A DNA stretch of 64,000 bases from Chromera velia (lineage: Eukaryota). Of the stretch, positions 23,313 to 53,800 are shown one piece after another; positions within the stretch are counted from its first letter, which is position 1; each line of letters starts with the position of its first letter. A model generated the notes under the pieces. It was not told where the DNA came from. It was given only the letters and a program-made list of their open reading frames with translations, and did no database searches. The position numbers and the translations under genes were made by a program. The stretch lies in assembly GCA_018398765.1 (NCBI GenBank), contig JAHBMJ010000510.1:62001-126000 (forward strand), written 5' to 3'.

Positions 23313-23386
23313 CGTCCATCAACGACCTTGAAAGCACTCAAGCGAGAATAGAAAGAGAAAAAAGGAACCGGGGGTCAGGGCTGTCG

Positions 23387-31363: not shown

Positions 31364-33070
31364 NCCCCCCTCCCTCCCTGTTTTGTTCCCTTGCGTCGTT
31401 TCGACAGTTCTTCCTGCCCCGCCTGTCTTTTTATCTTCAGTTCTGTCTGTGCTTGCCCCCTCTTTCGTCCCCGGATGGTTAGTACAGATGGGGGCATTCA
31501 CTTGTTTCCATCTGCATGCGAATGTGAATGTGCATGAGTGTGTCCATCCGTATGCCTCCGTGTCTTCATGTGCTGACGTGTCTAAACTGATGGAAGTGCC
31601 AAAGACCCGCGCCTGCACAGAATTCAATTCACTCTGCCGTCCGCATGGTCTGTCTGGTCCCGACATACAGAGACAGACAGACAGACAGACAGTGTGCTTA
31701 GAAGGCTCCGAAGGAAGTAAATTTGATTCTGGCTGTCGCTAGTCGAACAGAGAAGAGGTGGACAGGCATACTGGACGGATACATGAGTGCATGTTCGAGC
31801 TGAGCCAGTCAAATTGTTGGGAGGGAGTCGGAGTCGGGGCACACAGCATACGGACAGTAGGCAGCGATGCGATGCACATTCACTGGACAGGTTGTGGGGC
31901 TCTTACCACCTTTTCTTAGCTCTGTGCCTCTTTCTTATTTTTGGTAAATTGAATTCGCTTTTGGCGTCAAAATTGACGGTCCAACTCCCCTCCCTCGTCC
32001 ACCACCTCCTCCTCGTTGGGAGGAGAGTAGAGACAAAACCTTTCAAATCCAAGGTCAAGTCTTTCAGAAAGTGAACAACCCGAATTGGATTGTGCTGTCA
32101 TGGCCGCACAGAAGAATGCTGCTTGGCCATGCACGCAAAAATGCTTTTTCTTAAACGTATTGGTATCATATAAATTATTTTATTTTATATGCTATTTTAA
32201 TGTCATTTTTCATAGTTGGAACGTTTTAAATTCTACTATCTAAAAAAAGTTTAAGCAAGAGACTTAGCTAGTCTGAGACTAGTCTTAGGCTAAGTATAAA
32301 TAAGTATAAACAATGAGAGTAGCAGTATAGGTGTTTCATAGTGTTTCAGTCCAGCATGATTGATTGCAAGTGCAGTGCAGGTCTCTAGAGACGACGGAGA
32401 ATGGGTTTAGGCCCCTAGCAAGACCTAGTATTTGCATCTAGGAAAAACAATGATAAAATAATTTTAATAAGTAAAAAAAAAAAAAAGAATAAAATGTTAT
32501 GAAGAATTAAAGCAAACAATGACCAAAAGATTGATTTCTTAAGGCGGTGGCTGGGAGATGCTGGGGGCAGCTCGCCCTAAGCTGGGAGTCACTGCCTATT
32601 TGAACCATATGGCGCGAACAGAGTATCCATGCCGGCCAGCGTAAAATTTCTTGGGCCGGGCCCCAATTATTATTAAGAAGAATTAAGATCTGCATGTGCA
32701 TGGAAGTATTAATACATGCATGCAAGCGCGGTGCATACAGCGATACAAGGGAAAATTTGTCTGACCTTCACATGCCACTGATGCCAGAAAGTGTCAGTGT
32801 GTCTGCATGGAATATTTGCGAGGGTGGCTCCTCACTGAATGCAGGAGATGAGAGGCAGCACATCATTCGGGACCATGACAAAAAGTATGGGTTTACCATG
32901 ATGGGTTTTTGAGGTTGTCTTTCAGGTTTTCTTCCACGGTGCGCTGAAGACTGCCGTTGTCAAACTGTCCGCTCTCTGTCTTGTTCACACCGAGGATCCA
33001 CATGCAGTACATCAGCCGGTGGCACCACAGCAGCACTTGATCAAACTTTAGACGCAGCAGGAGAAACAGA

Positions 33071-35640
33071 ATGTCGGTGACTGGGGATAAGGATGCAGCG
33101 GCCCCGTCACAGGCCTTCGATCAGCACAACACCGCAGAGGGCATGCAAACAAGGAGTGCAGTTGTGGTTGTGAGAGTCCGCCCCCCTGAGTTTTCAAACT
33201 TGGAACCGGAACTTTCTTGCCTCAAAGATCTTAGCACAAATCTCTCAAGGAGCGAAATTGAGCTGAAGATCCCGGCGGACGAAAAGAACGGGTCGATGGA
33301 GGAGGAGAAGAGTTACTACACCACGTTTGATCACGTCCTTGGTCTTGGAGATCACACTGCAGACGATAGGGAAAAGACCAAGCTTGACAGCCAGGACTCT
33401 CTTTGGGAGACAATCGGAAAAAAGACCCTTGGTGAGTGGCGTGCCATGCATCTTGCTGGCTGCCGGAAAAGGTTCCAGAGGAGCAACCTGGCCAACTATT
33501 CTCGTGCTCTTTGGTTTGCTTCTCTATATATCTATCTGTCGGTTTCTTTTTTGCAGTCTCTCTCCATTTTTCTCTCTCTATCACTGTCTCTCTGTCTACC
33601 TGTCTGCGTGCCACAGAAACGTCAAAAGGAGGGACAGGGATAGCAGAGGCAAAAGAGAAAGTGTCTATGACTCGCTGCCCTTCATGCTGTGTCCCTCGAC
33701 CCGACTACATTTGTTTGCAGACGAGGCATGGACAGGCTATAACGTCACGATCCTCGCCTAATCAGTCAATGTGACGAAAGCGCATTCTCGGTGTCTGGAC
33801 TCTCTGTCCCTTCTTGATCTGAAACACTCAGAATTAAAGTCAGAACCATGCACTGACTCTGAAAGCTGCGATCCCTCTTCTTTCCGATAACGACAGAGCT
33901 TGAGGTTTCCCCGTTCTCTGCCATCCCGCATGCCATTCCACCGGCTGGTTCCTGACTCCACATTTCAGCCAACCGATACATGCCGGCAATGCAGCGGTCA
34001 GGCCGCAACCGGGAAACGTCTTTCGCTCGTGGGGGAGGAGGGGCTTGTATTCCGTCACTGTCGGGGGCTCCTCGAGAGGTGTGCAGAGCACAGGAAGGGG
34101 AAGCAGGAGGAGTCCGATGCTTGGGCCCGTCTGTGCATGCTGGAAGTCGACAAGGAGAAGGACGAAGCCTTCGATCTCCTCGCACAGGAGAAGGCTGAAC
34201 GACAAAGCAGACTCACTGACAGAAGCCGACGACTCGCCCCCAGAAAGTTCTGCCCCAAAATTGTGGCCACGGAGGAGGGGCTCGAAACAAGGTCAGGCGC
34301 TTCACGGTTTTTTGTTCAGTGGACATACGTGTCATTCAACGACCCCATGTATTGCCTCCAAGACACTTGTCCGATAGAGTCAAGCACGCCCTGTGGGCAT
34401 CCTGATGTGCATGCGTTTCATCTGAATGAATGTCTGCCTGAACGTCGGAACGTCCATGCAGAGCACTGCACGACGGGACGACATTGAAACAGTGGATCTA
34501 CGAGGGTTTGGCGAGACGGAGGAACAAGGGCAACCACCTGATTATCAAAGTGATTTTGTTCAAGACTCTCGGAAAGGTGGGTGGAGTGTATCTAGATGAT
34601 TTCTGCTGCGTGCTTGACATCCCATGGATCAAACAGCAAAAACAAAAGCTTGTTCTTGTCATTTCTTGTATCTTGAAATCAGACTTCTTTGCTCTTTGAC
34701 GTCGCAGTTGCCTTCGGACTCGGGATGATGATAAAGAAGAGGATTGGCCTTCGAACACATTGAAATGCAGAGACATGCATGCGTGCATTCATTTTGGAAG
34801 CTGCAGAACAAAACCAGCCGGGCGTGGATCAGCGAGTCCTGCTTCGTAGCGCTCGCAGACAGCGAACAGAAGTACAAGCAGAGTTACCGGGGAGGAGGAA
34901 GGAAGCGGACCCTCCTCGCTGTGGAGAATATCATCAACATTGTGGCAAGGGAACGACAGGGGGTCAGCCGAAAGTTTATGCATTGCATGCTTCACATGTC
35001 GCTGTGTGAATAGAGCTTTTTGTCGTACCAATTTTCCGCACTCTTCTGCTGCAATGTGCATATTTTGAATCGGCGATGCATTCAAACCTGTGTGCTGATT
35101 TGCTGCTTGTCCCTCTCTGTCACTGCAGGTGTTGGACTCAGAGTGCCGACAGACAGAGCTTGCAAAGCTTTTGCGTGCGAGCTTCAGAGACGAGGACAAC
35201 TGCATCCTCAAGATGGTCTGTCTGTCTGTCGGTCTGGGGGCACTGACACTCAATATGCTATGACATGTTCCTGCCTTCTTGTCAATGCCTTCTTGTCAAT
35301 AGTAGTTTCCATGTCATTCGGAAATGTGTCAGGCATAATCCTAAATGCTTCTGGTCAAGGTTTACACAGCCGCCCTCACTCACTGCACAGGCGTTATCAT
35401 TCCATGCACACAGATTCGCAGGGAGCTGCAGAGACATGGTTGACACAGTCCCTCTCAATGGATGGCGCTTCACTACGTTTCTTACTCTTTTTTTTCTCTT
35501 GATGCCTCTTGATTTTCTCTCCTATTTTCTGTCCCTTTCTTCTGCAGATTGCGACTGTGAGACCCGAGGAGGTGTATGCTCGAGAGAATAGGTGGACGCT
35601 GGACCTGGCAGCAAGATTCAAGAAGATCACCAAGGCCGTG
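33071..35640 (+). other. Degenerate kinesin motor domain (exons 1-7)
   Basis: VVVRVRP, TFDHV, SQDSLWETIGK, GYNVTILAYGQAATGKR (P-loop), NHLIIKVIL, FVALADSEQ (switch II DLAGSE), RQTELAKLLRASF, MIATVRP..ENRWTLDLAARFKKI, all in canonical order. Confidence 0.9.
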
Positions 35641-36530
35641 TATCCCAATGAAGTCAGCACCATGTACAAAAGACATCTCATTCGTTGGGAAGGCGAACGT
35701 CAGAAGAAGGCCAGCGATAGACAGAAGCAACTGGCAGGACACGACGAAGACACGCACCCGCAAACCCTGAGGCTTCCTAGCGCCATTCTTTCAAGGAGTC
35801 AAGTGGCGAGTCTGGAAGGGAAAGACGTCGGAGCAGTGCGTCACCGCCCCAGTCTGCAAGACCAGGAGGAAGAGGACGGGTGGAGAACTCCTGAGCCTGC
35901 TGAGCGTTTGAATAAATATCTTTCCGAGAATCTGGATGAAGAAGGTGTTTTTCGTCTCTATGCGGAAGAGAGGGGTCGAGTTGTCACGTACACTCTGAAG
36001 GGCGACTCCTATACCCTCGGGAGTCAAAGGAATCACCCCAAGCGACTGCTTCCTGATGAGGAGAATGGTGGAAATACGGAAGGCTCACAGGTCACTCTCG
36101 CTGTACGTCTATCTCGGCAGCATGGAGTGTCATCCATCCCCGCCTCCGTGACAGTGCACTGCCTATTGACCGAGAAGTGAGCGCAGAGTTTTTCTGCCGC
36201 CCTGTCCACAATATGCAGACAGTGTGTACATAGCTCTTTGGTTATTTTGCATTCATATCATTGTTGCAGGGCTCTTACATCTTTCTTGAGGGTCCGGGAA
36301 TCGAACAAAACCACCTTCAGCTCAGAAGACTCCGGAGGGACTCATTGGAAAAGGTGTGTCAAAGGGAATCGAAGATTGAACGCAAGCAAGAATTCGAAAA
36401 AAGTCTGCCGTCTGCCAATGTCAGCACATGCCGAAGAGGACCACAATGTGAGGGGATTCACAGCTTGTGAATGCACGCCAGACCGTTGTTTTCATTTTAA
36501 CTGATCGATCTGCTCTTTTATTCTCTGCAG

Positions 36531-37103
36531 AAGTCATCGGCCAGCCCTACCGACTTTCCGGTCCCAGAAGGCTCAACTTTTTTCTCTCGGCCCTTCACGG
36601 AAGAGATTAGAAAGAAAGGGTGGTTGGAAGCCTACGACAAGGTTCTCGATGTTTGTGAGGACTACCGAAGGGCTGGTCTAGAAGGGGTTCGTCCCGGCAC
36701 CATCGTTGTCCTTTGTGACGCGACCGTCTTTCTTAAAGAAGAAAAACAACGAACAGACGATGGACGGCGGGTCTGCCGGTGGGGCACTGGGCATGTAAAT
36801 CGTGTGTTTAGTCGGCCATACGACCTGAAGACGGACCAAGGCAGGCGTGAATTTCGTGATACAATGACGTATGACAAGGCGCTGGTGGTGGATGGTACCA
36901 GCGCGACCTTCGTTGCTTCCCACTTTCATTTGAACTCTTCGGGGAATACGTCGAACCAGGGAGGGGGGGCAGGACGGAGTGCAGCAGCGGAGACTGCTGC
37001 AAACGCTGAGTGTGTGACTGTCAAGGTGTCGCGAGATGGTGAGATGTCCGTCTTCTTCTCGCACAAGGGGCAGCGGTATAAAGGCAACTGTGCCCCTCCC
37101 CAG
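36531..37103 (+). other. DisA_N/DAC (diadenylate cyclase, DacZ-like) fold domain on a single exon
   Basis: VLDVCEDYRRAGLEGVRPGTIVVLCD ... YDKALVVDG ... FVASHFHL ... GGGAGRSAAAETA ... VTVKVSRDGEMSVF matches the order and spacing of the DacZ consensus (EG..VGTIFVIGD / LDGAFII / GLGARHRAAAAIT / AIVVSE.G.VRVF). Confidence 0.75.
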
Positions 37104-37215
37104 GTGGGTGCATAGAAATTTAAATCCTTTTTTTGAGACTGGTAGCCTGCCAGCGTGGATCTCACAGTGTCAGCACGTGTGTGTGTGTGTGTGTGTGCCT
37201 ATATGTGTGTGACAC

Positions 37216-37247
<32 letters not shown>

Positions 37248-40072
37248 GAAGAGAGAGAAAGAGAGAGAGATCCAGAGAGAGCGCAAACAAACAGGCATTC
37301 CATCCTTAGCCCACTCATGCCTTAGAAGACTGGAAGACTGTGAACACAGCCACCCTTCAGCTGAGTATCAGCCAGTGATCATATGCGAAACTTTATCGTG
37401 GCTCATGAGACACACGGACGGGTGGCTGAGAAGGGCCACCATTCACGGGCGTTAGCGGTCTCAACGTCCTCCAGAAAACATCAATTGGGAGTCTCGTGTG
37501 CATACTCTTTTTTTGTAAGCCAAGGCGCCCATTTGGATTGCGACCGTCCCTGAATGAACCCAGGCTTCTCAAACTTTTACTGGCGTGCCTTCGTCTCTTT
37601 TTCCCATTTCGTATATTTATGACTCCATGTCATAGTGCCCATGCATGAATGTCTTCAGGAAGCAAGACCCGCTACTCACGCACGTCGGTCCTCTGAAGAT
37701 TATCCGGATGAATTGAACCCGGTCAGCTAGCTCTGGGAATCACCGGGCATTTCCCTTTCAGGCTTTCCTGTGATGCTTCTCTCATCCGTCTTGAAGCTTG
37801 TTGCGGTCTGATTCCCCACGGAAGTGGAAAATGTGTCGATCACCGACCCGCCACACAGAGTTGACGTTGCCAAGGGATTGGTGTGTAGGGTCTTGCCGAC
37901 AAGTAAGTGTGGGAAGAATAGAGACTTGAGAAACCAGTCAGACGGTGCAATTTGATGAAGAATTCGGACTTACATGTTTCCACTGTAGCGACAGTGTCAC
38001 GTTTTCATCATAAATTTCATACGTTCGCTTTATATTGGTTGCTCTGAGACTTCAGGGAGAGATGTACTGGGAGATATGCAATCTGGCAAATCGCGGCAGG
38101 AGAGACTCAGGAAACATTCGGAAAGGAGATGCTCGGACGCTTGTCGTCCCAGCAAAGAAGGGAGGAGGAATCGAGGCGAGCAATGCGTTGGATCTGCAGA
38201 CTTTGAAAGATCAGAAGATAAGGGTGCACGACGCAATGATCATCGCAGGATGCTATGCCTGTTGTGGTCTCTCGTCTGAGCGAGACGTTTTCTTCTATAA
38301 CGATTTCCAAATCGAGATGGCGCACAAGGTCTGGAACTGGATGTACCCTCTCTGCTTTAATTTTGCAGACGTGTTGAGTCCTGCAGACGACAACTCCTTC
38401 CCGTGGGAAACTGGGCGGCAAGCCAGCGAGGTCAGATGGAACTGCCAGCTAGTGACGTTCATGCCCGATGAATTTGCCTGAAGCTTCCTGCGGTGATTCG
38501 TTACCTTCACCTGGTTACGTCGAGTTTGTAAGGGTGGGGCAAGGACGAAATCATCTTGCCAGAGAGTGCTGCTGTTTATGTGGTCCTTGCAATCATCCAA
38601 ATGACGCAAAGAAGGACTACTGGTTCTCCAGATTTTCACCTTAACATACCCCCCCCGGATGTCTGCACTAATGTAGTTACTATGGATTTGCAAAGTGAGT
38701 GAGTACGTTGTGACCTGATTGTCTGCAGGGAGGGGTAGCGTTCCACTCTGCCAAACACAGCTGGGTAGAGTTCAAAAAGGACATCGAGTTTGACCGCAAT
38801 TTCAATTTTGACGTAAGCTTGCGTCGATATCTCCTGTCTCGAACTGGTCACCGCACGAATTGCTTGTGTCTGTGCACGTGTGCCTTGTTGCTGCCTTCCC
38901 CACAATGGGCATCTATGATCTCCGTCGCCTTTTGGAACTTACTTTCTTAGCAATTCACTAGATTTCTGTTGAGAGTGACCGCCCATTCATGTGAATTGTT
39001 TGATTGCAGAACCAGAACGGCAAAGAGAAGCTTCGGCTCATGCAAGCAGTTGAGACCACGATGACTGTCCGGGCAATGGCAGAAGACTGGGAAGAAACAA
39101 CAGGAGAGCAAACCACGCTCGTAGACGCTTTCCCGGTCCTCCTGGTCCGTCACCACAGTTTTTTCAAAAGATCTCGCATTTAAACCATCAGCTCCATCTG
39201 GCAGCGAAGGGAAAAAGTCCATCAGACCTCTTCGATCGATCGAAAGAAGTTTGACGACCTGATACTTTCCAGAACGAGAACTTTGCTGTGATCCTTCTCA
39301 CTTGATAGGTTTCTGTTCTAACGTTTGTGTATGTGTACGTATCTGCGAGTGCAGGGCCGGGCGCCAGACACAGCCGAAGACCCACGTTGGCTGATATGGC
39401 TGCGCTTTTCGAAGCACACAGGGGGATATGCGAAAAAGCAGTCTTCTGGAGGCACGGACATTCAGCTTTGGGATGCCGAAGAGCTGGCAGGAAAGCTGGT
39501 TGAGGAGAGACACAGGGAAAACCCGAACGACAGTTGGCTGTTTGCTGAATCTCAGGAGGCGTCCCAGCGACCCACACAGGTGCTGACCTTCTGTGGTACT
39601 GAGATTCCTCGGAGCACATATCCGAAGATGGTCACTTTCCGCGCTCCTCCAATCGAACGCTCAAGCTTCCTGGAGGACTTGTGGTGGTCAACCGATTTCT
39701 GTTTGAAGCAGGACCATGGGAGGGAGCAGAGGTCGAATTTTCGGATGGTTCAGGTCCTTTTGGTTGACTCGGAGCTGCAGAAAGAGCAGCTGGAGGCCCT
39801 GTCGCCTACCGCAAGAGGCATCGTTTTCATCTGGTGAGTCGCTCGATTGGGCCCTCCCCGACGGTGAATCTCTCGATCTCTTCTTTTGGTTTTGAATTGA
39901 AAGAGGCGCAGTGATTCTGTTGAATGCAAAACATGCTCAATTGAGTGAATTGACTCTGGATCACTGTTCATGTTCAGGTGATCGGGATTTAATTGTCGTT
40001 TTGTTCTCATGAGTGTGCTTACTGACCAGAAGGGACCTTCGTCAATTGTTTTTGTCTGAGTTGACCTTGCAG

Positions 40073-41420
40073 GTGGAAGGAATGGCGGCAGCTGCGCAAC
40101 TGCATGAGTGACGTCTTCAGTCGGGCCTCCGATTCCCTCAAGGTGAAGACGCTGTGTCTACAAGGGTGCTCATCTCTGTCTGACCTTCCTCAGTATGATG
40201 AGATGAGACGGATAGTGGGGCCCACAGCAGAGACGGGGTTGGGCCCTCTGTTTCCCTCCATGGCAGAGGGAAGGGCGGTACTCCGCAAAGGACTCTCAGC
40301 TCTATGCCTGAGCGACTGCACAAACGGACCCCGAGAGATCTGTCTAGAGAGCGAATCGTCGAATCTCAACACGGATAGCCAGAACTTGCGCTCGCTCGTG
40401 CTAAGAGAGTCAGTTCGCTTTGATTCCACGTATACGCCTGCATGTCACCAATTCATTGATCTGCATGGCCATATGCGAGTCCCATAGATGTACCTACGCA
40501 TTGTGTACACATGCTAGGGCACACAGAGAGTCGGATATATATATCCTTTCTGTCGAGAGGACGTACGACAGGTACGGACGGTACGGGCGTTTTCTCGATT
40601 CTTCTTCTTTCAAAGAAACCCAATATTTCCTACTGCCCAAAATGCCGAACCTGTCTCCACCATTCATCCATCAGAGTGTAAGTATCTTGACAAAGTGTTC
40701 CACAAGGACGCCACTCCTCCATGCACACGGCTTTACCTATCATGTCATTCCTGCAGCCTCCCCTTCCTCGAGGACATTCAGCTTCCATCCAACTGCTCTA
40801 CCGGTCTTCAGATAGTCAAGGCCAAAAACCTTGTCAAACTGAGAAAGATCGGTCCGCTCAGAGGCCAAGCCGACCTCCGCATCCTGAAGCTTGTGGGACT
40901 TCCAGAGCTCGAGGAGGTCATGACTCCGGAATTGGAGGAAGAACGAATGGAACAGAAAATCGGTTTCTTTGGGAAGGCACCTGACGGGGGGCTGAGGAGT
41001 ATCCGCAGGTTCGAAGTTAGGGACCTGCAGAAGGTCACAAGACTGCCAAAGGTGGCCACTTGGAAGAAGCTTGAGAGGCTGCGAATCATTGGGTGAGTCG
41101 TTTTGCTTTGTAGCTTTTTCTTACAATCAGTGTGAGGTGGGCCTGCAGTACGTGCACTCCGCCGGATTGAGCATTCTGTCACCGCATGATTGTCTTAGCC
41201 AGGTGTGGGGAATGAAATAAAAACGTCTCGACCTGTTCGAGACCGACACAAAGGCACGAAAGGGGCTTAGGTCGAGCTGTAAATTCCGCCTTATCAATCT
41301 GGGCCGCCAACGAGATTTATTGAAATTTTCCTACTGCCCCTCCATGGATGCAGACTTCCTCTCCTAGAGAGGCTCCCGGACAGGCTCTGTGAGTTGGAGG
41401 AACTCGAGGGGCGCCGATCC
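40073..41420 (+). other. Leucine-rich repeats
   Basis: VKTLCLQGCSSLSDLP, LRSLVLRDLPFLEDI, LRILKLVGLPELEEV, LERLRIIGLPLLERLP. Confidence 0.85.
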
Positions 41421-41559
41421 GACAAGGCCAACGTGAACATAGATGACGTTCCAAGTGTGACAAATCCCCCTTGGCACATGGTGAACTACCCCAGTGCTGA
41501 GGAAAGATGGTTCAAAATCGTTAAACTCCAAAAAATGGAAGAAGAGAGGCAGATAAAAA

Positions 41560-44500
41560 GGAACACCCTCAGGGTCTTCGTTGTCGGCCATGCACACAGC
41601 GGTACGTGCATTTTGTCTCGACATCTTGAAAGTGGGTGTTGTTCTATGCTGGTGTACCTTCTCCTTCACCATTTTCACCTATCGTCCTCTTGATCATCTC
41701 ATGAATGCCTGCTGCATACTCTGCGGATTTGTTTGATTTTCTTCTCGCCTCCTTGATGGTGATTTTGCTATTTTTGCTCCCTTCTGGGAGTGTCCACGTG
41801 AATCATGCATGTTGACCCATGTTCCACTGCAGGCAAGACGAGCGTCTGTAATGCCCTGACAGGAATGCGGGATCCTCTCGGCACCACAGCCCTGCAGGAG
41901 GGCAGGTTGCCTCCTTCTCGCCGCAGTTCTCGCGCAGGCCGCAGGCCGGTATTGCGAAAAGAAGGAGCCACGTCGCTGGCACCGAGCCCCCTGACCATCT
42001 ACAGCTTGTGGGTGGAGCCGAAGCCTGCCAGGATCCCCTCATGGAGCGTGAAGCCGAGCATTCGAGGGAAGAGATTGCCCGCCGAAGTGGAGGAGCGTCT
42101 CGAAGGAGAAAACACAATTGGCATCTCCAGTGCGGAGTCCAAGATGGCGCAATACGCGAAAAAGGAAGACTACGAAGAGAAGGGAGACTTCGTCCTCCAG
42201 CAGATGCCCGATGACACAACGGCAACAGGCGATCGGAGTGGGGAGGCGAGCCCGTTCACATTGACTACAGCAGGGCGGTCATCCCGGCTGTCTGACCAAG
42301 ATGTGTCCAACGGCACAGACCGCTCCCCCACTTCGACTCTCGGAGGAGAAGCGGGGCACCAGATTGATCCATCATCCCCCAGTTCCCGAGGCTGCTTCTC
42401 ACCCCATGCAAAGCTGGGGAAGAAATCATTTGCGATTCAAGATAATATGAGAAAACGACCCCTGCCAGTGGATATCCAACTTTGGGACTTTGCAGGAGAA
42501 ATCGCCTACCGCGCATCCTGCCGAACTCTGTACTTTGAAGGGGCCTGTCATCTGCTGTGCTTCGATGGTGCACGAATTGCTGAGGTGCGTGAACAAAAAA
42601 CTTACCCTGTTTTGTTCCTTGAAGACATGGGTGCAATTGAAATCAATGTGAGCATCGTAGATTACTCTGGAGAAATGTCAACAGAGTCCCCCTGATGCCT
42701 GTCCGTTTTTGCAGCGACCGAAGAGCGAATGGGCTGACCTGATTGACCGCCATGTGTTGGAGTGGATCGAGGATATCGCGGCAACCGTTACGGCCTCCTC
42801 CAAGGTGAGCTCACTTAGACGGGCTCGAAGGAGAGTGAATGGTATCGCATCATGCAAATATGCATCTCTGAATACCCAGTACTCAAGTTCATCAGAAGCA
42901 TCACAAAATCTACGATCAACACATAGAGTATTTTGATGATCGCCGCAGGCCAATGCTTTTATATTCGACCTGACAAAAATCTCAGCCTGCGCATCACTGT
43001 TCATGAAATCTCTTGCCCCCTTGCTTTGTGCAGAAGCAAATCCGCCCTCCAAAGGTCATCTTGGTAAGTACCAAGATGAGCCTGGCATCGTCGGCGGAGA
43101 GGGAACTCGTCAAGATGGTCGACAGAGTCACAGAGAGGCTTTATGGAAGACCTGATTCTCCTTCTTTTGCTTCACACAGAGACGACGAGTTTAAAAAGAC
43201 CATCTCCATCGACAGCGTCCTGTGCATCGACGTGAACGGGAACATAAGGTCCCAAGTGACCACGCCCGACTCAAGCAAACCATCTACCAAGCTACTGCCA
43301 GTGGGAATGGTCAGTTGATCAAGGCCTCATGAAAACGATATGTGCAGGCGAAGCTGCATGTGCACGAATTCACTTTCCCCTGACTGCAGATTCTTGCAGC
43401 AGATCAATTTATCGGCTCATGGCCCAGTCTTCTTTAAGCCTGATCGAACAGGGTGTCCAGACTTTCCACTGCCTTTGCACACGCTTCTTGTGCACCGCTA
43501 TCATTTTCTGCGCTGCATAGTTGCAGACAATTCCTCAATTTCAGCCAAATCGAATTATTGAATTCCTTGGCGAGTCGACTCGGCAGCTAGCTGTGTAGAG
43601 CCGCGCTTCACATGTCTGCAGAGGAGAAGTCCAGCCGCTGAAATTCAATTTCTTCCTCCGAGTCCGATCATTGGTCCGGCTTTGAGTTGGAGGCACTCAG
43701 AGTGGTTGGATGATCCCGGGGGACAGCCGCGGAGTCCCTCCCGCCTGTCTACTGGATCAACTAGTCCAGGTAAGAATACAACAGCCCACTTTCGATCAAA
43801 AGCAATCCCCATGGATGAAGCATAGACAGATGTCAAACTTGATTGAGCACTGCATGTATTCCTCTGCATGAGAAAGCGAAGAGGCCTCGTTGGAGTACTT
43901 CGGTACGGGGTGTCTACGCGAGTCACAAACAACTGTCGGCTATCTCAATTGCCGGCGGTTCGAAAAAAGCGCTGCGAAACACCGATCGACTTTCATCATC
44001 CATCACGGAGACTGAGCCCCTTGGAGTGGTCGCCTCTTTTATCTCATTCTTTTGTCGTCAGACTTGACCTAATATCAGACCCACCCATATGTCTTTGTAT
44101 GTATGTGCTACTTGCAGGCAGCGGAACTTGAGCCAGTCGTGGAGGCGTTTGCATCCAGCAGAGACGATCTGAACAGAATGGCCAAGGGGGCGTTTCTGCT
44201 GTCGAAAGTCAGATCCGAGTTGGGGGCAGAAGAGCTCCCCAAATGGATCGAGTGGGTCCAGAGGGACTCGGGTCTGCGTCTCCTGTATGAGCCTCGCTGG
44301 GAGGCTGGAAGTTCTCAGTCGGTCGACAAGCAGCTAGAAGAGTCAGATGAGAAGACATCGGAGACAAAAGACGGCACCCTCAAGAGCGATCCGAGCGAGT
44401 TCGGAGAAGCTGCAGCAGCAGTCGATCCGACTGTCTCTGCGGCTCCCTTCGCGAGCTCGGTTGCCGTTGTCGCAGAGCCTGCTTCTCCCTTGTTCGACAA

Positions 44501-46500
44501 GGAAGCATCTGCTCATTGCTTCGTGCTGACCGATGCCCACTGGTTGCTCGACCTCTTTATGGACCTTCTAGAGCCTCACAAGAGCCCTGGCTCCCTTCTA
44601 GCCCACTCGAATCAACAGATACCCCACAACCGCCAACAGGTGTGGAGCGAAGAGCTCAGAGACAAGCTAGTAGTAGCGCTTCAGAGGGAGAAAACAGTAG
44701 CCAGAAAGGGTAGCATGGAGACGGGTGAAGAGGTAACTTTGGACAAAAAGAAGATCTGCGACATGTTCGGGACGATGTTGGACCAAATGAACCGCAAGGC
44801 CGTGATTCACCTCTTTCTCCTGAAAATCATCCTGAGTCACAGAATCGAACGCATGACTCATGCCTCAAGTGGTGGTGGTGGCTCACGGCAATTCCAAAAG
44901 TTCAGAGAGAAACAGGAGCTATTTCGCACCTATCTCCGGGTACGTGAAGGTTTTAAGACACTACGCATTCCATCTAAAAGGTGCTCTTTCAGTTTGGTTT
45001 GTTTTCTTTAGAGGTGTGCAGGTGTTTCTGTCTGAATGCCCGCCTTTATTCGGGCGAAGTGAAATCGGCGGAAGGACTTCCGCATTGAGCTCTGTGTATC
45101 TTTTCATTCAAACACACTCTGAGACTGATTCCTTTTAGTCAAGGCTGTTCGATCAATGCATGTCCTTTAGAGTGCTGAGCCGAACTGATGCAGATCGATA
45201 GATACATGCAGCCAGTTGCAGCTATGATCACTGGAGATCCATTCTTCATATGCACGCGCAACGGAATCTTTGTTTGTGTCCAATAATTCATTTTTTTTGT
45301 GCCTCTCTGTGTCTTGCAGGTTCTCTGTGCTGCGTTGGTTATGATCCCTGCCGATTCAAATTCTGGGGATCCGAACGGACCAGGTCCTCCTTGTGAAAGG
45401 GCAACGAAGTTTGTGGTGCCCCTCAAGTGGGCGTCTACGGACAGCCACATCCTCAACACAGTCCAAGCAGTCGGGAGAGAAAAAGCCAAACACCAGAGCA
45501 TCGTGCGTTTTGCTACTGGAGGTCGTATTTCTTCGAAACTCTTCCAGGATATCCAATGCGAAGTTATTAGAGCCTGGATGCACCAGTCACCAGAATGTTC
45601 CCCTAGAGCCCTCGTAGACAGCAAAGGTCTTCTGCTGTCCCGTACTTTCAAAGTGCCCGATGGCACAGAAGGGGAGCAGGGGGTCGAAGAGGATGTGGTT
45701 GTGCATGTGCAGCTGGTCAAGATGCACTCAAAGAGACCCAACGCAGAGAGCGAGGCTGTCTCAAAGTGGCAGCGATGGCAGCCACAGGACGCTGGACCCA
45801 GTGGGCGTGCAGTCGAAGAGGCTGAAGAGTTCAACGATCTGCCGGGAAAGCCGGCCAGACTGCTCGTCCGTGTCCTGTTCGGACTTGACACCGCTCTCAA
45901 GAAATTGCACGGTACGGAGAATAGAGGGGGGAATGTTGAAAGATTTGCAGAGAGAATCGAGAGTCACCACTTTTTCCCGCACGTGGTGGACATAACCACC
46001 CAAACGCTCAAGACTGCTCATCCCGATTTAGAGACGGAGCTCAGATGTCCCGTGTGTGAGCGCTTCTGCATCAATCTTGCTGAGTTCGAGAAGCCAGACG
46101 GTTCCATAGACAGTAGGAAATTCATCAGAGATGCAGTTTGCTACACCCATTCGGAGAAAAACTTTGAGCCAAAGCCAATCGAAGCAACACGACTCCCGTG
46201 CCTCACAGCCCAGAACAGAGAGTCTCCCCTAAAAGTTGAGGTCAAATTTACGAAGGACGTCCTATTTGAACTGCCAAAAATGCTCAAACAGGTGAGACGT
46301 GTCGTTTGGGAGACCTACACTGATGGCAGCTTTCCCAGCTGGTTTGTCTGCTGCCCCCCCCCGAAAACAACATTTCGAGAGAGGGTGAAGATGTTTTTCT
46401 TCCGTGATTGGACGGTCATTTTCCTCTGCGAGCTGTGCCAAAAACCCGCACAGAGGGTGGTGAGAAGAGAGAGGGAGGATCAGTCCCCGGATAGCAAGGG
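41560..46500 (+). other. Roc GTPase and COR domains (Roco family)
   Basis: LRVFVVGHAHSG|KTS P-loop across an intron, IQLWDFAGEIAY (G3), KVILVSTK (G4 position), FVLTDAHWLLDLF (COR), KFVVP, FPSWFV..P and VIFLCE C-terminal motifs. Confidence 0.88.
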
Positions 46501-48659
46501 TGACCGTCAGCATCCAGAGCTCAGAGTGGTGTACAGTGAGGGTGAGATCCTGAAGAGGGTTGTACGCATAGACACGTTCGCGACAATCTTTCTGAAGAAA
46601 TTTTTCCTCTATGTGACACTAGCAGCATTAAAACAGATGGAGGAGCTCGGAGTGTTTCCACTCTACACCATCCTGAAAGAGCTGAATCTGGAGTTCATCG
46701 ATCCAAGTTGGACTCCCAGTCAGTTGCAGAATCAGTTTGCCCAATACATACAGCAGTCCGCAGAGAATTGACTCGAGGAAGCGACTGGCGAGGCACTAGC
46801 CCAAGCAGAACAGCCAGATGAAGAGAAGCAGATTGGGGAGGAAGCAGAGAGGGCGGATCAGGAGGGGTTGCGAGGGAATGCAAACAATCTGAGTAGAACT
46901 ATCGCTCATGCACAACACTTTTGGAGGAGGTCAAAAGGGACCCCACAGCCTTCAAGGAAAACTACAAAAAATTTGCAGAAAAACTAAATGAACAGATGGA
47001 GAACGATCCGCTGACTCGTGACTGGAAAACCGCGTATTTGTTCCAAGCAGAATGTACGTCCACCCAAATGACTCCCCGCATCTTCATTTGCGGGAGCTGT
47101 CATGCTCAGTGCAGCAGAGTCCGGGAGGCCCGAGGCCCCCTCTTCAGGAAGAAGTACCCAAGTTCCGATTTTGTGACCGTCCCGGAGGGGAGGGCGGCGA
47201 GGCCAGTGGAGGTGAAAAAACCAGAGCCAGCCACCTGCTGCTGTGGTTGTCGGTGCTCCTGCTGTTCGTGCATGTCTTCAAGGTGTTGTGTTCTCCAGTG
47301 AGAGGGCTCATCAAATTTGAATGAATCGGCGCGGCGATAAATTTGCATGCACAAACTCTGTTCCTCGAGGCGGTGTGTGCCGTTCGTGGGCTGAGACGTG
47401 AGTTTGGGGAGAGAAGATGAGAAGAGGGATGACGTACAAGAAAGAAACGGTTGCACCTCTTAAAAGAGATCATAGACAACGTGTCCTGCAGGCATGTGAC
47501 TCGCGTGACTCGTCATGCATGGCGCTGCTCCGCCTGGTCTGCACTATTTTGTTGAGAGCGGCATGTGCCGTTCTCGACCACGAACGTGGGAAGGCTTGAT
47601 TGTTTGGGATGGAATTAAGGCTTTTTGGGGTGGAAAGAAAGGGATGAGGCCGTTGTGAAGCTAGCTGGCCATCCATTTGAGGTAAAATTCAGTAAAAGAG
47701 GCTCTGAAGACGCATGACCTGCATGAATTGTTATGCTTTTTTTGTCTCGGCTAGTGATCACTTTGCTGAAGACGCTATTAACCTTCCAAAGCCAAATTCA
47801 TACGTTTGGAATTGAATTGTTTGGGAACTGAACACTGAAATGTTTTGCAATAAAAGCCATTGTATGAATGTCATTGAATGAATGAATGAATAAATGAATG
47901 AATGAATGAATATGAATGAATGAATGAATGAAGCAACAATAGGCTCCCAACACTAGCCTTGACATTTTATAGATTTAAAAATCAATAAAATAATATTATA
48001 AAAAATATGACTTTAAAACAAACGTGCAAAAAAAACGTGTTAATTACTACGGACCAGTTCACGGTGTTAGAGTCTGTGCGTAAAGTTTTTAAAAAATCAC
48101 TGCACTTTACTGATACAGCTAGTTACCGTGAGTTGAGTCATAAATTTATAAATAATTTTTTAATAAGAATGTAATCTGATATGAATCGAGCTCGTTGACT
48201 AAAAGGCCAATGAGCTTCCAACCTTCCAATTTTACTTAAAATTTGCATATATGCATGGATGGTGAAAATCGTAGTATGACATTATATGACATCAAATTAA
48301 ATTTTGATAATCATAGTTTAATCATACTTAAATCATACCACATTATTATAAAACTATATAAAATAAGTATTCAAATCAAATTAAAATTAAATCGTATCAG
48401 ACCATACTATTTAGGTACCTTAAGTTATAATCCCCTCATTTGCATATATCTGACGGAGTCTTACCTGTTTGAATACCTTTTGTATCATTTGCACGCACAC
48501 AATGATGGACCAGTGCAAAATTGTTAAGACTAAATGGTACCAAATGGAACTTTATTATATGGAAGGTTGAGTCTGCGAGCGCCGCGTGGCCTGGGGCCGC
48601 CTTCTATGTAGTGTAATGTAGTGTCAATTTAGGGTGGCGCTGTGGCGTGCGAAGGCCGG

Positions 48660-49021: not shown

Positions 49022-50836
49022 ATGCATGAAGAGGAACCTCTGGGTGGGGATGAGAGTACAGATGCCTCTCTCACAGAGCTCCCCGATGAGGTTTTCATGC
49101 ATCTCTTCGACGCTCTTCCCCCCTCATCGATGCACAGCCTTTCCAAAGTCTCAAAGGCCCTCAACGCAACTCTCTCCCAACTCAGTCGCTTGGCCTTTCG
49201 ACGTCTCTTTGGGCGAAGCGTCTCTTTTGGTCTCCAGATACCTGACTATCTGGATGCGCAACCTTCTCTGCTGTTTGATCTCCTTGGCCTCGTGCGACAG
49301 GTCCAAAACTCTCACAAGGCGGCCGTCAATGTGCTCTCATGGGCAACGGGTGGGTGAATCTTGTAGGTCTCCTCATTTACTACTCATGCCACCTGCATGT
49401 ATGTACATGATGCCCTTCCTGCTAGCTGGCTGATCTTAATTTTCTCTCCACGCTGGTCCTAATGTCTTCAATGCACTTGTATCATACTTCTCTGTTTTTC
49501 CCTTTCCCCATCCAGAGGCCGTAGCCAGGGAAGTGTTTATGTTCAACTATGGCCCCCTCCCTACTCCTTCGCCTCGAAGGCAGGAGCCCCATCTTTTCTT
49601 TGCTTCCCCTCGAAGGTGTAAAATCATTAAAGTTTCGTCGCCATGGAGCGTGCTGGTGTATTTGTCTGCAGCCTATGGGTATATGGACTTTCTCAGCCGT
49701 TCGTTGAGTCAGTGGACACAGAGAGCAAAGGTTTTCAAGGGGGCGCCTGGAGAGGAGGACGAAGAGGACCAGAGTGTGAATCCGTTTGTGCGTGTCCTCT
49801 GGCTTCTCTGCGCACCCGAGAGAATTTCCCAATGCTCGCCGCCCCTGGCTGTAGCGCTCCGTCAGTCTCCCCTCCACGCACTGCCTCTCTTCCTCAAGGA
49901 GATCGAGAGGGCTGCAGATGAACACTTCACACGAATGGAGACGCGACTCGAGAACGAAGGGGAAACAGGAGAATCCCCCCCCAGGTTCAGCGTGGACCTT
50001 CGTCCTTTTCCTCTTCTGAAGCTGCTGTGCCTGGCTGGAATGAGGGGAGAGCGAGAGGCCTTCAGGAGACTCCTCGAGGTCCTCTGCCGACTTGGATTGG
50101 TCAGTCGACAAAAGGGAAGAGAAAGAGACGAAGGAACGAAGCACGAGAGAGAAGGGGGAAGCTATGCAGAGGGAGAGGAAGAGAGAGAGGGGGGGCTCGG
50201 TTGATCATTTTGACTTTCCAAGGGCGGGGCAGACGGAGGGAAGTGAAGTGAATTCAGGACGATCGTCGAACGAATGCGCGAGCTTCTTAGTCAGGCAGTC
50301 ACAGTTGAACAGAGGACGTATCAGTCAGCCACAGAGAAAGAATGGATAGGTGACATACAGACCCTCTCTCTGAAAGTGCACAAAAGGCCCAGTTTACTGA
50401 ATGCGGTCTCCTGAATTGTCTCGCATCACTCTCTTCTCCCCATTCTCCTTTTCGGCTGATGCAGGAAAGCAGAGGGATGGTTCTTCGGATTGTCTGGTCC
50501 CTCTTGAAGACGCTCAAAGAGCTATCGGGGGATACAGAAGACACCATCAACAACAGCAACAAAAAAGCTGGTACCGGGGGACAGTCAAAAGCAAAAGCGA
50601 AATGGGCAGCGACCCAGGGGCCGCTCAGGAAAAGGGTCGATGAGGGAACTCTTGAGTGTCTCCGAGTTGCTCTGAAGGTATGTAGCTCTCTTCTTTTCTC
50701 CCCAGACTTTTCCCCTCTGTGTTTCTCTCTCTGCACAAATCTGTCTCTGCATGCCTAGTTCTGCTTCTCCCACAAGCTCTTCCTCTATGATCCTTTGGGT
50801 ATCCAGTCAAGCTTATCAGTGAAAGAAAGGAAGGAA

Positions 50837-50874
<38 letters not shown>

Positions 50875-53800
50875 ATGAATGAATGAAAGAAAGAAAGAAA
50901 GAATGAATGAATGAATGAGTGAGTGAGTGAGTGAGTGAGTGAGTCTGTCGTTGTGTGTGCTCGTATGGTCGACCTGTCAAGACCTCTCTTGTACACGTCT
51001 TGCCCCTATTCTTTTTTTCTGACTCCCTCCATGCCCTCCGTGTCTCTTCTCCACAACTCGATTTTCTCCCCATCCTGACATTCCGCTTTCCTTCCCCTGT
51101 CCACAAAGCAGCGCGTCCCTCCAGAGGAAAGACAAGGAGGGGCCGCTGCCTCCGCCCTCCTCTTCGCCTGCCAAGAGAACCTGAGGGAGGCCGTGGAGGC
51201 ACTCGTAAAAGAGCAAGTCGGGACGGACCCCGACCCAATGGCACTTCTGGTCGGTCAGTGGATCTTTCTGTCTGTCCATCATTCCGCCTGTCACACTACC
51301 TCCATGAATGCGTGTCTCCTTCCGTCTTGCCAGCTTTCCGGTCTGTTTGTCCATTGGTTAGTAGAAGTGAATGAAAATAATCAAGAAGCAGAGGTACAGT
51401 TGAAAGGAAGGACGAAACAAGCGAGAGGAAGCTTCTGAAAAATCTCAGAACGGTTTTTGATTTACTTCTGTAAGAGCGGAAGCTGAGAACCCAAAAGGCG
51501 GATTGGTGAATTAATTGGCGTGTCTTTTTTTTTTTTGCCCTTTTGTCCCGAGTTTTTTTCATGATCTTTGTAACTGCTGTATGGAATGGGCAAGCAGGTG
51601 ACCAGAGTGGCGGGAAGACCAGTGCCAAGAGGCCGTCCAACCTCAGCACAGAGAGTGGCGGAAAGAGATGCAACAGTGCGCGCGTCTCTGTACAGAAGGT
51701 CCCGGTCGAGGGGTCAGAGACCTGCACCTCTCTTTTCGGAGACTAGGTCAGGAGTTGTGGGAGGATGGGGTGCCGGTACCCTGGTGCGTACATCCTCTCG
51801 CGTCCCTCCTGCCCCCCTGCCGGAGGGTTTAGAGGGACTCCCTGTGGGTGTGTGGAGGCAGGAACAGGGAGTCGGGGGGAACTTGCCTGTGGAGGATCTG
51901 ATGGGGGATGGTGTCATGACGAGAGGGGCTCCTCAGAATGGAATAGGGGGGGGGGACGAGTTGAGAGCAGACACTTCCCCCCTGCTGGTTGCTGTCAGCA
52001 GAGGGAACTCGGAGGTCGTTGAGGTGGGTTCTGATGGCTCTCTCTCGCCTGCAATTCTTTCTCGCGTTTGCCTTCTCCCGAACTCGCATTCACGCCACAA
52101 AGGATCAACAAAGACGGCTTCGAGCTCTCTTTCGAATCTTCTCAATAATCAATTACAGTTCATCTGGCTCTGAGTTCCTTCCTAATTTTCTTCCCTGCTG
52201 CAGGTTCTTCTTCGTCACCGTGTGGGCAGAGTGAACTTCCGCAGCCTCTCGGGGAAGTCGGCTCTTCTCCTCGCGGTTGAAAAAGGGCGTCCAGACATTG
52301 TCAGACAGGTCTGTCTGTGGGGGTGCAAGTGAATAGAGATGGCATTTGGAGATGTTTCTTTACCCTCAAGTATGGAAGAGCTGCAGCAGCAAATGATAAA
52401 AGTGTGTGCATCTTCTTGAACATTGCGCTGTTTCTCTTCTGAAGATCAATTCATTGGCAGCAGCGGAAGTCAAACGGGATATCCTCCCAAATGAATGCAC
52501 GCAATGAAAGGAGACCGAAATACGCTTGTATATACAATCACATTTTTCCTTCTTCTGCGAACATGCACGGGATAAAACCGTCTCTATTTCTTTCTTCACT
52601 CCTTTCAGCTACTCCGGAGAGGCGCCAACGTTCGCACAGAGAGCGCTGGAGGGAAAAGCGCGCTTTCAGTGGCAGTAGCGGTGGGCCATCTTTCTTCCCT
52701 CCCATTGTCTCTTTTCTTTATCATTGTTGTTCAGTCATCCGTCCCTTCCTTTCTGCCTGTCACGTGATCGCCCTTTCTCGCTTGCTCCTTCCTTCTACGT
52801 GTGTATACTTATCATCTTTTGCACGCAAGCGACGACATGGAATCAGCCGCAGCCACTTACACACGGTCTTTCGTCGGGCTCTATCTCTATGCATTTTTGC
52901 AGAATGGGAACGAAGCAGTGCTCCGCGCTCTTCTCGATTTCTCTTCTCTCGAAGACCTGATGAGGTCAGAGGTAGCAGAGGCGGAATGAAGAAGAAGAAG
53001 AAAGGGAACTAGGAGAGACTGAACAGAATTTGAGTAAGAAGGGAAATGCATTCGAGACGACACCATACTCATACCTGGCTTGGAGTTTAGCCCAGAGCTT
53101 CGACAGGCACGATCTCTCTGTCTACCTCCCTGCCTTATTGGAAGAAGTGTGTCTTCCTGCATCCAGCTTTGGGTTGGTGAGACGAACCCAAGAAGAAAAA
53201 CAAAACAGGCGGACAGAGAGAAAGTGCAGGAGGGACAAGCAGAGCTGCACGGCCTTTTTTTGACCATTGCGAGTGTCACTCACCTGTCTCTACTTTCCAC
53301 TCACAAATTGTGTTCCTCACCGTGCTCAGTGTGCAACCAGATCCAGATAGACCGTCCTGCACACACAGATGGATGGGGATGCAGACGAAAAAACTGCGGC
53401 AAAGTTCGTTCTCTTCACCCATTCCACTCATACCTGCATTCGTACAGGCCCGCTGCAAACGGAGAAACCCTCGTCGGTCTTGCGGAGAGACGCTCCGCCC
53501 GTCCTGTCCTGTGTGCGCTCCTCGAAACGTACCTACGAAAGGTCTGGAACGTGTTTCGAAAAGAGAGAGGACTTTGTTGTTTCTTGGTCATTTTGTCTGT
53601 CATGTGCTGATGCGCCTTTTTGCTTGGGGGAAAAGAAATAGTAAAGCTATCTGACGGCACTTGACGTTCTCCTGCTGGAAGCGAGATCCAATCTGAATTC
53701 TATCTATTAGAGTAGCCCTACAGTGAATGAATGTCGATTGTCAATGTTGTAGTATAGCGATTCATTCGGGTCCGTACTTCTTCGCTCTTTGCCTCCTTTA

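What the first reader, a model, noticed from the sequence alone, without database searches (positions are those of the whole stretch)
33071..47301. Kinesin-3 / FHA / diadenylate-cyclase-like / LRR-Roc-COR / CaaX fusion: a candidate nucleotide-signalling Roco system in a protist
Seen: consecutive, phase-compatible exons encode a kinesin motor, FHA-like strands, a DAC-like domain, LRRs, Roc and COR, ending in CCVLQ. Kinesin-3-like segments continue after the DAC exon (DVFFYNDF vs HVFRFNHP; SWVEFKKDI vs DWAFAQREL; IQLWDAEELAGKL vs HYWTLEKLRQRL) and splice in frame into the LRRs. This argues for one gene rather than two neighbours. Established: Roco proteins carry variable accessory domains and are linked to signalling and innate immunity; DAC domains make c-di-AMP in bacteria and archaea. 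Inference: a microtubule- and membrane-tethered LRR sensor GTPase coupled to a cyclic-dinucleotide-type module. I know of no described protein with this architecture.
Basis: partly seen in the sequence, partly recalled or inferred. Interest (0 to 1): 0.92.

Follow-up and report, generated by a model that had tools for sequence, protein, structure and literature searches.

The report
Kinesin–DAC-fold–Roco fusion gene, broken here
In the alga Chromera velia, what is likely one long gene joins a worn-down kinesin motor, a domain folded like the bacterial c-di-AMP enzyme but lacking its catalytic motif, and an LRR-Roc GTPase; this genome's copy is broken, while a copy about 1% different is spliced and open where it was covered, so it is likely a fast-evolving immune-type sensor rather than a working c-di-AMP maker.

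Summary
The fusion is largely real, but it is probably not a c-di-AMP system, and the window's copy is broken. The locus is Chromera velia Cvel_3583. I modelled 22 exons and about 2,770 aa; run X1 shows 10 of 21 introns spliced. The two decisive junctions (37103/38056, 39833/40073) have no RNA cover. They rest on strong in-frame splice sites, public gene models and weak kinesin-3 stalk traces after the DAC exon. Confirmed: a kinesin motor with altered P-loop and switches, half an FHA, a DAC fold (Z 11-14), an LRR-Roc junction and a CaaX end. COR was not confirmed. The DAC-like domain has DKA/GAGRS instead of DGA/GTRHR, and none of its relatives has RHR. X1 is spliced or open at all four. The wider lead: the same RHR-less DAC fold sits N-terminal to NB-ARC, beside a GTPase and after a COR domain in other proteins, so it may be a mobile module of protist immune-type receptors.

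The parts
33071..47301 (+). Whole gene model, 22 exons, about 2,770 aa when read through its breaks; public gene Cvel_3583 (models t1-t4 each cover part)
   Evidence: 10 of 21 introns spliced in run X1
33158..35655 (+). Kinesin motor domain (aa 30-388, exons 1-7) with P-loop GQAATGKR, switch I NKGNH and switch II ALADSE; predicted ATPase-dead
   Evidence: 48 bits; 5 of 5 fetched full motors keep GQTG[SA]GK, NxxSSRSH and DLAGSE
33761..33994 (+). Intron 2, beginning AT instead of GT in the window; unspliced reading hits TAA at 33759-33761 just before the P-loop (break 1)
   Evidence: joint 33760/33995 AT..AG in X1; sequence
35977..36329 (+). N-terminal half of a kinesin-3-type FHA domain (end of exon 7 and exon 8)
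36531..37103 (+). Exon 9 (phase 0 on both sides): complete DAC/DisA_N-fold domain with DKA and GAGRS in place of DGA and GTRHR
37104..38055 (+). 952-nt intron 9 (inferred); in-frame stop 9 nt after the donor; the one-gene versus two-gene junction
   Evidence: donor beaten by 5 of 784 decoys, acceptor by 25 of 1,079; public model t2 uses it; no RNA cover
38056..38430 (+). Exon 10, unassigned; neither a second DAC copy nor a detectable FHA C-terminal half
   Evidence: partly covered and spliced in X1
38750..39510 (+). Probable remnant of the kinesin-3 stalk element that follows FHA (two ordered blocks in exons 11 and 13)
   Evidence: best chain in the whole model; 0 of 400 regional and 3 of 150 whole-protein shuffles reach it; post hoc; profile searches negative
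39834..40072 (+). Intron 13 (inferred), joining the kinesin-derived half to the LRR-Roc half
   Evidence: donor beaten by 0 of 784 decoys, acceptor by 7 of 1,079; public model t3 uses it; no RNA cover
40143..41560 (+). Irregular LRRs ending in the NPP cap and helix that lead into Roc
   Evidence: profile from 61 prokaryotic Roco proteins
41562..43309 (+). Roc GTPase: G1 GHAHSGKTS and G3 WDFAG intact, about 190-aa insert between them, G4 deviant (STKMS)
   Evidence: (Pfam Roc E 3e-4, below cut-off)
43622..43769 (+). Exon 20 (inferred); the window has 4 more bases than X1 near 43735, a frameshift (break 2)
   Evidence: table 4; public model t3 skips this exon; not bridged by a spliced contig
44118..46150 (+). 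Region in the COR position; identity as COR not confirmed
46769..46771 (+). In-frame TGA in the last exon (break 3); X1 reads a sense codon
   Evidence: table 3
46909..46910 (+). One base fewer than X1, a frameshift (break 4)
   Evidence: table 4
47236..47301 (+). Cysteine-rich tail ending in CaaX (CVLQ) and stop; predicted lipid anchor
   Evidence: sequence; inside an X1 contig 47036-47422

Best explanation
This is likely one lineage-specific fusion gene encoding a membrane-anchored LRR-Roc (Roco-type) sensor GTPase that carries a predicted motor-dead kinesin-3 front half and an inserted DAC-fold domain predicted not to make c-di-AMP; the window's copy has four breaks and a copy about 1% different is spliced and open where covered. 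Shown: the domains and their motif states, ten spliced introns, and the four differences from run X1. Inferred history: the front half of a kinesin-3 gene (motor, FHA, stalk) was joined to a Roco gene, and a mobile one-exon DAC-fold module landed in the FHA region. Inferred working: the CaaX tail holds the protein on a membrane, the LRRs sense a ligand, and the Roc GTPase switches and clusters the protein. The dead motor acts as a static microtubule tether or bait, and the DAC-fold module acts as a nucleotide-binding or oligomerising output. The inferred role is defence-type signalling, in a family with fast turnover, which explains the loss of this allele.
For: One gene: strong in-frame splice sites at both open junctions; no AT-rich spacer inside the locus (lowest 200-nt GC 0.41 against 0.26 and 0.23 on the flanks); public models t2 and t3 use the two junctions under one gene id; kinesin-3 stalk blocks after the DAC exon. 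Dead motor: all three nucleotide motifs altered; X1 matches the P-loop exon with 0 other letters. DAC fold without catalytic motif; mutating DGA or RHR abolishes synthesis (PMC4568413, passages), and D, G, G, R are invariant in bacterial DACs (PMC13640721, passages). Mobile module linked to immune-type NTPases: of 8 relatives at E<=0.001, 3 carry the domain N-terminal to an NB-ARC/STAND-like domain, 1 beside a GTPase, 1 after COR-A. Fast turnover: 7 synonymous and 24 non-synonymous of 31 exonic differences, with 7.05 synonymous expected under neutrality; brown-algal Roco families hold many pseudogenes (PMC11378527, passages).
Against: No RNA spans either decisive junction, nor any part of 36119-37669. 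The exon-10 acceptor is the only TTCAG among 21, intron 9 is the longest (952 nt), and an ATG follows the acceptor by 6 nt, so two transcription units are possible. The public models are Augustus predictions (PMC4501334, passages) and not independent proof. The stalk test was post hoc and three profile searches of that region were negative. COR was not detected. X1 evidence is single contigs at depth 3-6, the run is only guessed to be RNA, and its genomic donor at intron 2 is unseen. No second protein with this domain order was found. The neutral-looking ratio also fits decay of both copies. No function was tested.
Confidence: 0.55

Rival explanations
1. A decaying chimeric gene without a current function: domains were shuffled together, are still transcribed in some isolates, and drift neutrally.
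For: Non-synonymous to synonymous ratio at the neutral expectation; every domain scores below its Pfam cut-off; four breaks in the window's copy; no orthologue found.
Against: The domains have diverged very far from their families while X1 stays open over the pieces covered, and its one extra indel is an in-frame 6-base insertion. Roc G1 and G3 and the CaaX end are intact. Long neutral decay would be expected to have closed the frame.
Confidence: 0.18
2. Two neighbouring genes: a kinesin-FHA-DAC gene ending at the stop 37113-37115 and an LRR-Roc gene starting at the ATG at 38062.
For: Public models t1 (ends at that stop) and t3/t4 (start at that ATG) exist; longest intron and atypical acceptor; no RNA bridge.
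Against: Strong donor 9 nt before the stop, in phase with the next acceptor; no AATAAA/ATTAAA and no AT-rich spacer in the interval; kinesin-3 stalk blocks lie downstream of the gap.
Confidence: 0.17
3. One reading: an active nucleotide-signal enzyme switched by the Roco GTPase, with a non-standard active site in the DAC fold.
For: The family keeps an Asp at the DGA position, a second Asp (IIDG), SxDG and an N-terminal RxG in most members, and sits where NLRs carry effector domains.
Against: No RHR in any of the 11 aligned copies; the window's copy also has Lys at the Gly of DGA; I found no c-di-AMP pathway described for such protists.
Confidence: 0.1

Closest known systems
Roco proteins (LRR-Roc-COR), e.g. 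brown-algal candidate immune receptors (PMC11378527, passages)
   Same: LRRs, NPP cap and helix leading into a Roc GTPase with G1 and G3; high divergence and pseudogenisation
   Different: N-terminal kinesin-3 half and DAC fold; long insert in Roc; deviant G4; COR not confirmed; CaaX end. The word kinesin does not occur in that paper's main text.
Kinesin-3 motors (KIF1/KIF13/Unc104 type)
   Same: Motor, then FHA about 110-150 aa later, then probable stalk blocks
   Different: P-loop, switch I and switch II all altered; only half of FHA detectable; KIF1B, DUF3694 and PH domains not detected; tail replaced by LRR-Roc
Diadenylate cyclases DisA/CdaA/CdaS and the minimal immune DAC PanS (PMC13640721, abstract and passages)
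   Same: DAC fold (Z 11.1-14.0, rmsd 2.8-4.7 A over 126-141 residues, 40 PDB entries; next unrelated row Z 2.5)
   Different: DKA for DGA and GAGRS for GTRHR; eukaryotic, fused into a GTPase; no product shown
NLRs with integrated domains (PMC4759884, passages)
   Same: An LRR-bearing switch protein fused to a degenerate copy of a host protein that could serve as bait
   Different: Roco rather than NB-ARC core; protist; no effector or partner known
Chromera DAC-like + NB-ARC proteins (Cvel_16893, 25995, 16077, 18779) and unnamed P0012 (COR-A + two DAC-like copies)
   Same: Same RHR-less DAC-fold family, 30-37% identical to exon 9, attached to P-loop switch domains
   Different: They keep DG at the DGA position (P0012's second copy reads EGA); none has a kinesin part

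Membership tests
Roco (Roc-COR) GTPases | Roc domain with G1 and G3 motifs | tested here: met
   GHAHSGKTS and WDFAG; Pfam Roc E 3e-4, below cut-off; 0 of 300 shuffles
Roco (Roc-COR) GTPases | COR domain directly after Roc | tested here: inconclusive
   No hit with a 73-sequence prokaryotic COR profile; hhalign below shuffles; best block rank 12 of 2,752; single-sequence model pLDDT 35
Roco (Roc-COR) GTPases | LRRs with cap leading into Roc | tested here: met
   E 8e-6 on the whole model; 0 of 300 shuffles
Roco (Roc-COR) GTPases | GTP binding, hydrolysis and dimerisation | not testable with these tools
   G4 is deviant (STKMS); needs biochemistry
Diadenylate cyclase (DAC/DisA_N) | DAC fold | tested here: met
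   AlphaFold2 model pLDDT 78 from a 10-sequence alignment; Foldseek E 7e-6 to DisA; Z up to 14.0
Diadenylate cyclase (DAC/DisA_N) | DGA motif | tested here: not met
   DKA in the window's copy
Diadenylate cyclase (DAC/DisA_N) | RHR motif (G-x-R) | tested here: not met
   GAGRS aligns to GTRHR; no RHR in 11 of 11 aligned copies
Diadenylate cyclase (DAC/DisA_N) | c-di-AMP synthesis | not testable with these tools
   needs an enzyme assay
Kinesin-3 | Kinesin motor domain homology | tested here: met
   48 bits over the whole motor
Kinesin-3 | Intact P-loop, switch I and switch II | tested here: not met
   GQAATGKR, NKGNH, ALADSE against invariant motifs in 5 of 5 fetched motors
Kinesin-3 | FHA domain after the neck | tested here: inconclusive
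   N-terminal half detected; C-terminal half not detected (20 of 30 shuffles reach the score)
Kinesin-3 | Stalk elements after FHA | tested here: inconclusive
   Ordered-block test positive but post hoc; profile tests negative
Kinesin-3 | Motor groups with kinesin-3 in a tree of all kinesin families | not tested
   only kinesin-3 sequences were fetched
CaaX-prenylated proteins | C-terminal CaaX | tested here: met
   CVLQ then stop, after a cysteine-rich run; unchanged in X1. Modification itself untested.

The most novel reading that the evidence does not exclude
The RHR-less DAC fold is an undescribed eukaryotic effector domain that protist NLR-like and Roco receptors use to bind or make a nucleotide signal by non-standard chemistry, and this gene is a membrane- and microtubule-tethered receptor of that system.
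Probability: 0.18. Interest if true: 0.9.

Novelty: new variant of a known kind. Interest (0 to 1): 0.58.

Why it matters
The architecture extends the Roco repertoire with a kinesin-derived half, which my searches did not find in print. The larger point is the DAC-fold family: DAC domains are known as prokaryotic c-di-AMP makers, recently also in anti-phage defence. Here a motif-shifted version recurs next to NB-ARC, GTPase and COR domains in eukaryotic proteins. If it binds or makes a nucleotide, it adds a new bacterial-type module to eukaryotic innate immunity, and small single-domain proteins make that directly testable. If the gene is only decaying, it remains a clear example of exon shuffling and of allele loss that misleads annotation.

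Tried and rejected
No genome is held for the window, so paralogs could not be sought at DNA level. X1 gave no cover of 36119-37669 or of the two key junctions; this is absence of cover only. Exon 10 as a second DAC copy: 101 of 500 shuffles reach its score, rejected. Exon 10 as FHA C-terminal half: not detected. A second stalk-like placement across the 39833/40073 junction was not significant. ESM Atlas gave no usable hit for P0002. PDB sequence search of P0002 found nothing; that of P0004 was swamped by ankyrin hits from the neighbouring gene. A full-length relative search with P0004 residues 1-1720 found none among 7,993 scored candidates of 1,254-3,992 aa; it is a weak search. No relatives of the DAC-like alignment in GTDB genomes or viral contigs by the pattern method, and no PADLOC hits. 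The single-sequence fold of exon 22 failed. No kinesin-3 motif match in viral contigs. Galperin 2023 on DAC architectures is not held and may mention eukaryotic DAC domains. Cvel_3583 was not found in 12 of 16 supplementary files of the genome paper; 4 were not searched. One search used one term that could not match as a whole word, so it required the other four. Three look-ups of earlier scan findings were empty. I considered assembly error for the four breaks: possible, but four in one gene together with about 1% other differences favours a separate allele. No complex prediction was run.
Full report
Identity. The DAC-like exon is 100% identical to a UniRef/EukProt protein of Chromera velia CCMP2878. 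Four public models share the gene id Cvel_3583: t1 (631 aa, ends at the stop 37113-37115), t2 (769 aa, spliced 37103/38056), t4 (311 aa) and t3 (2,281 aa, spliced 39833/40073). They are Augustus predictions made with RNA-seq intron hints (PMC4501334, passages), so they are supportive but not independent.

Gene structure. I modelled 22 exons from 33071 to 47301. Run X1, guessed to be RNA and held as contigs at depth 3-6, shows precise removal of 10 of the 21 introns, including both around exon 12, which the public models skip. Two further joint rows with 21-letter sides were dropped as repeat artefacts. Neither decisive junction is covered. In a leave-one-out splice-site model, donor 9 is matched or beaten by 5 of 784 decoy GT sites and donor 13 by 0 of 784; the acceptors by 25 and 7 of 1,079 decoy AG sites. 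Both pairs are in phase. GC never falls below 0.41 in 200-nt windows inside the locus but reaches 0.26 and 0.23 on its flanks. Against: intron 9 is 952 nt (the others 130-380), its acceptor is the only TTCAG, and an ATG follows it. I put one gene at about 0.8.

The window's copy is broken. A literal splice gives 27 stops. Four sites differ from X1 in ways that matter: intron 2 starts AT and is spliced in X1, while the unspliced reading hits TAA just before the P-loop; exon 20 has 4 more bases; there is a TGA at 46769-46771; and one base is missing at 46909. The public models route around all four. The exon-20 break depends on that exon being real, which no spliced contig shows. Of 39 single-letter differences, 8 lie outside the coding exons and were dropped; the other 31 are 7 synonymous and 24 non-synonymous, one being the stop, where neutrality predicts a synonymous share of 0.227. 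The sample is small and fits decay on one or both lines or diversifying selection. The protein clusters list no near-identical paralog beyond Cvel_3583 itself, so X1 is likely another allele or an unassembled copy.

Kinesin half. I fetched kinesin-3 pieces from 118 metagenome loci with a recalled motif; Pfam finds Kinesin and Kinesin_assoc in 5 of 5 checked and FHA in 4 of 5. A profile of 68 pieces matches aa 30-388 at 48 bits. The nucleotide motifs read GQAATGKR, NKGNH and ALADSE where 5 of 5 fetched full motors have GQTG[SA]GK, NxxSSRSH and DLAGSE, so I infer no motor activity. The first half of an FHA domain is detectable at aa 496-553 (0 of 300 and 0 of 30 shuffles); its second half is not. 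Profile searches of aa 753-1140 were negative. Block scans then showed that SWVEFKKDI fits another kinesin-3 stalk block. A chained test found the pair at 38750 and 39457 to be the best chain in the whole protein; 0 of 400 regional and 3 of 150 whole-protein shuffles reach it. The spacing there is 104 aa against 67-95 in 4 homologues and the allowed range was set after seeing it, so this is suggestive only.

DAC-like domain. It fills exon 9, which is phase 0 on both sides, as a shuffled module would be; many introns of this gene are phase 0, so this is weak. Pfam DAC is below cut-off (E 0.018). The AlphaFold2 model (pLDDT 78) hits DisA and CdaA structures in all 37 Foldseek rows shown and gives Z 11.1-14.0 for 40 entries against 2.5 for the next row. 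Atlas neighbours are prokaryotic clusters partly labelled DAC. The alignment to S. aureus DacA puts DKA on DGA and GAGRS on GTRHR. Either motif is needed for c-di-AMP synthesis in CdaS (PMC4568413, passages), and D68, G69, G103 and R105 are fully conserved in bacterial DACs, with D and R mutants inactive (PMC13640721, passages). Standard synthesis is therefore unlikely.

The family. A search of 1.84 billion representatives gave 9 hits at E<=0.001: the locus itself and 8 relatives at 30-37% identity. Six are other C. velia proteins. In P0005 and P0009 (and its cluster mate P0013) the domain lies N-terminal to NB-ARC, in P0006 before a weaker STAND-like hit, in P0010 after a GTPase, and in P0007 and P0008 before unassigned regions. 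Unnamed P0012 has COR-A followed by two copies. None of 11 aligned copies has RHR; most keep D-G, IIDG and SxDG. UniRef already labels P0008 a DAC domain-containing protein, so the domain's presence in Chromera is in databases.

Roco half. A profile from 61 prokaryotic Roco proteins aligns aa 1301-1420 through the last LRRs, the NPP cap and the helix into G1 (E 8e-6). G1 and G3 are intact and about 190 extra residues lie between them; G4 is deviant. COR could not be confirmed by profile, hhalign, BLAST to P0012 or a single-sequence fold, so membership in the Roco family is likely but not shown. The protein ends in a cysteine-rich run and CVLQ; that this is prenylated is inferred from the recalled CaaX rule.

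Mechanism. I commit to a membrane-anchored LRR-Roc sensor whose dead kinesin half tethers it to microtubules or serves as bait, and whose DAC fold binds nucleotide or oligomerises rather than making c-di-AMP (0.55). The defence role is inferred from the company the DAC-like family keeps, from the high divergence and allele loss, and by analogy with brown-algal Roco genes (PMC11378527, passages) and integrated-domain NLRs (PMC4759884, passages). Rivals: neutral decay (0.18), two genes (0.17), active non-standard enzyme (0.10).

Novelty. Eight literature searches (listings only, apart from the papers cited) showed no kinesin-Roco fusion and no eukaryotic DAC-NLR or DAC-Roco fusion; subscription papers are not covered and the main review of DAC architectures could not be read. 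Verdict: new variant of a known kind, interest 0.58. The fusion itself is a single, degenerate and locally broken gene; the RHR-less DAC family is the lead worth following.

Noticed in passing
P0005, P0006, P0009, P0013 (C. velia proteins): RHR-less DAC-fold domain placed N-terminal to NB-ARC/STAND domains, the position of NLR effector domains such as TIR; several paralogs in one genome.
   Followed up: partly
P0012 (unnamed NCBI contig): A separate protein with COR-A followed by two copies of the same DAC-like domain, suggesting an independent Roco-DAC fusion.
   Followed up: partly
window 49440-53610: Neighbouring ankyrin-repeat gene that public model t3 splices onto Cvel_3583, apparently to avoid the stop at 46769; X1 instead runs through the CCVLQ stop, so that fusion is likely an annotation artefact.
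   Followed up: partly
window 42804 and 43534-43766: X1 has a contig end that seems to join 42804 to about 43180 out of frame, and a contig that reads unspliced from intron 19 into exon 20: possible mis-spliced or unspliced RNA, or DNA in the run.
   Followed up: no
window 32847-33060: X1 contig upstream of the ATG, a probable 5' UTR.
   Followed up: no
window 29883-30764 (+): Formate/nitrite transporter gene (Pfam E 1e-65).
   Followed up: yes
window 15174-15245 (+): tRNA-Gly(TCC).
   Followed up: yes
window 22365-23318 (-): 318-aa open stretch with no Pfam hit in a lower-GC region; looks like a mobile-element fragment by eye, untested.
   Followed up: no
window 58308-60520 (-): Two long open stretches (433 and 254 aa), the first with a signal-peptide-like start and a cysteine-rich segment; no Pfam hit.
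   Followed up: no
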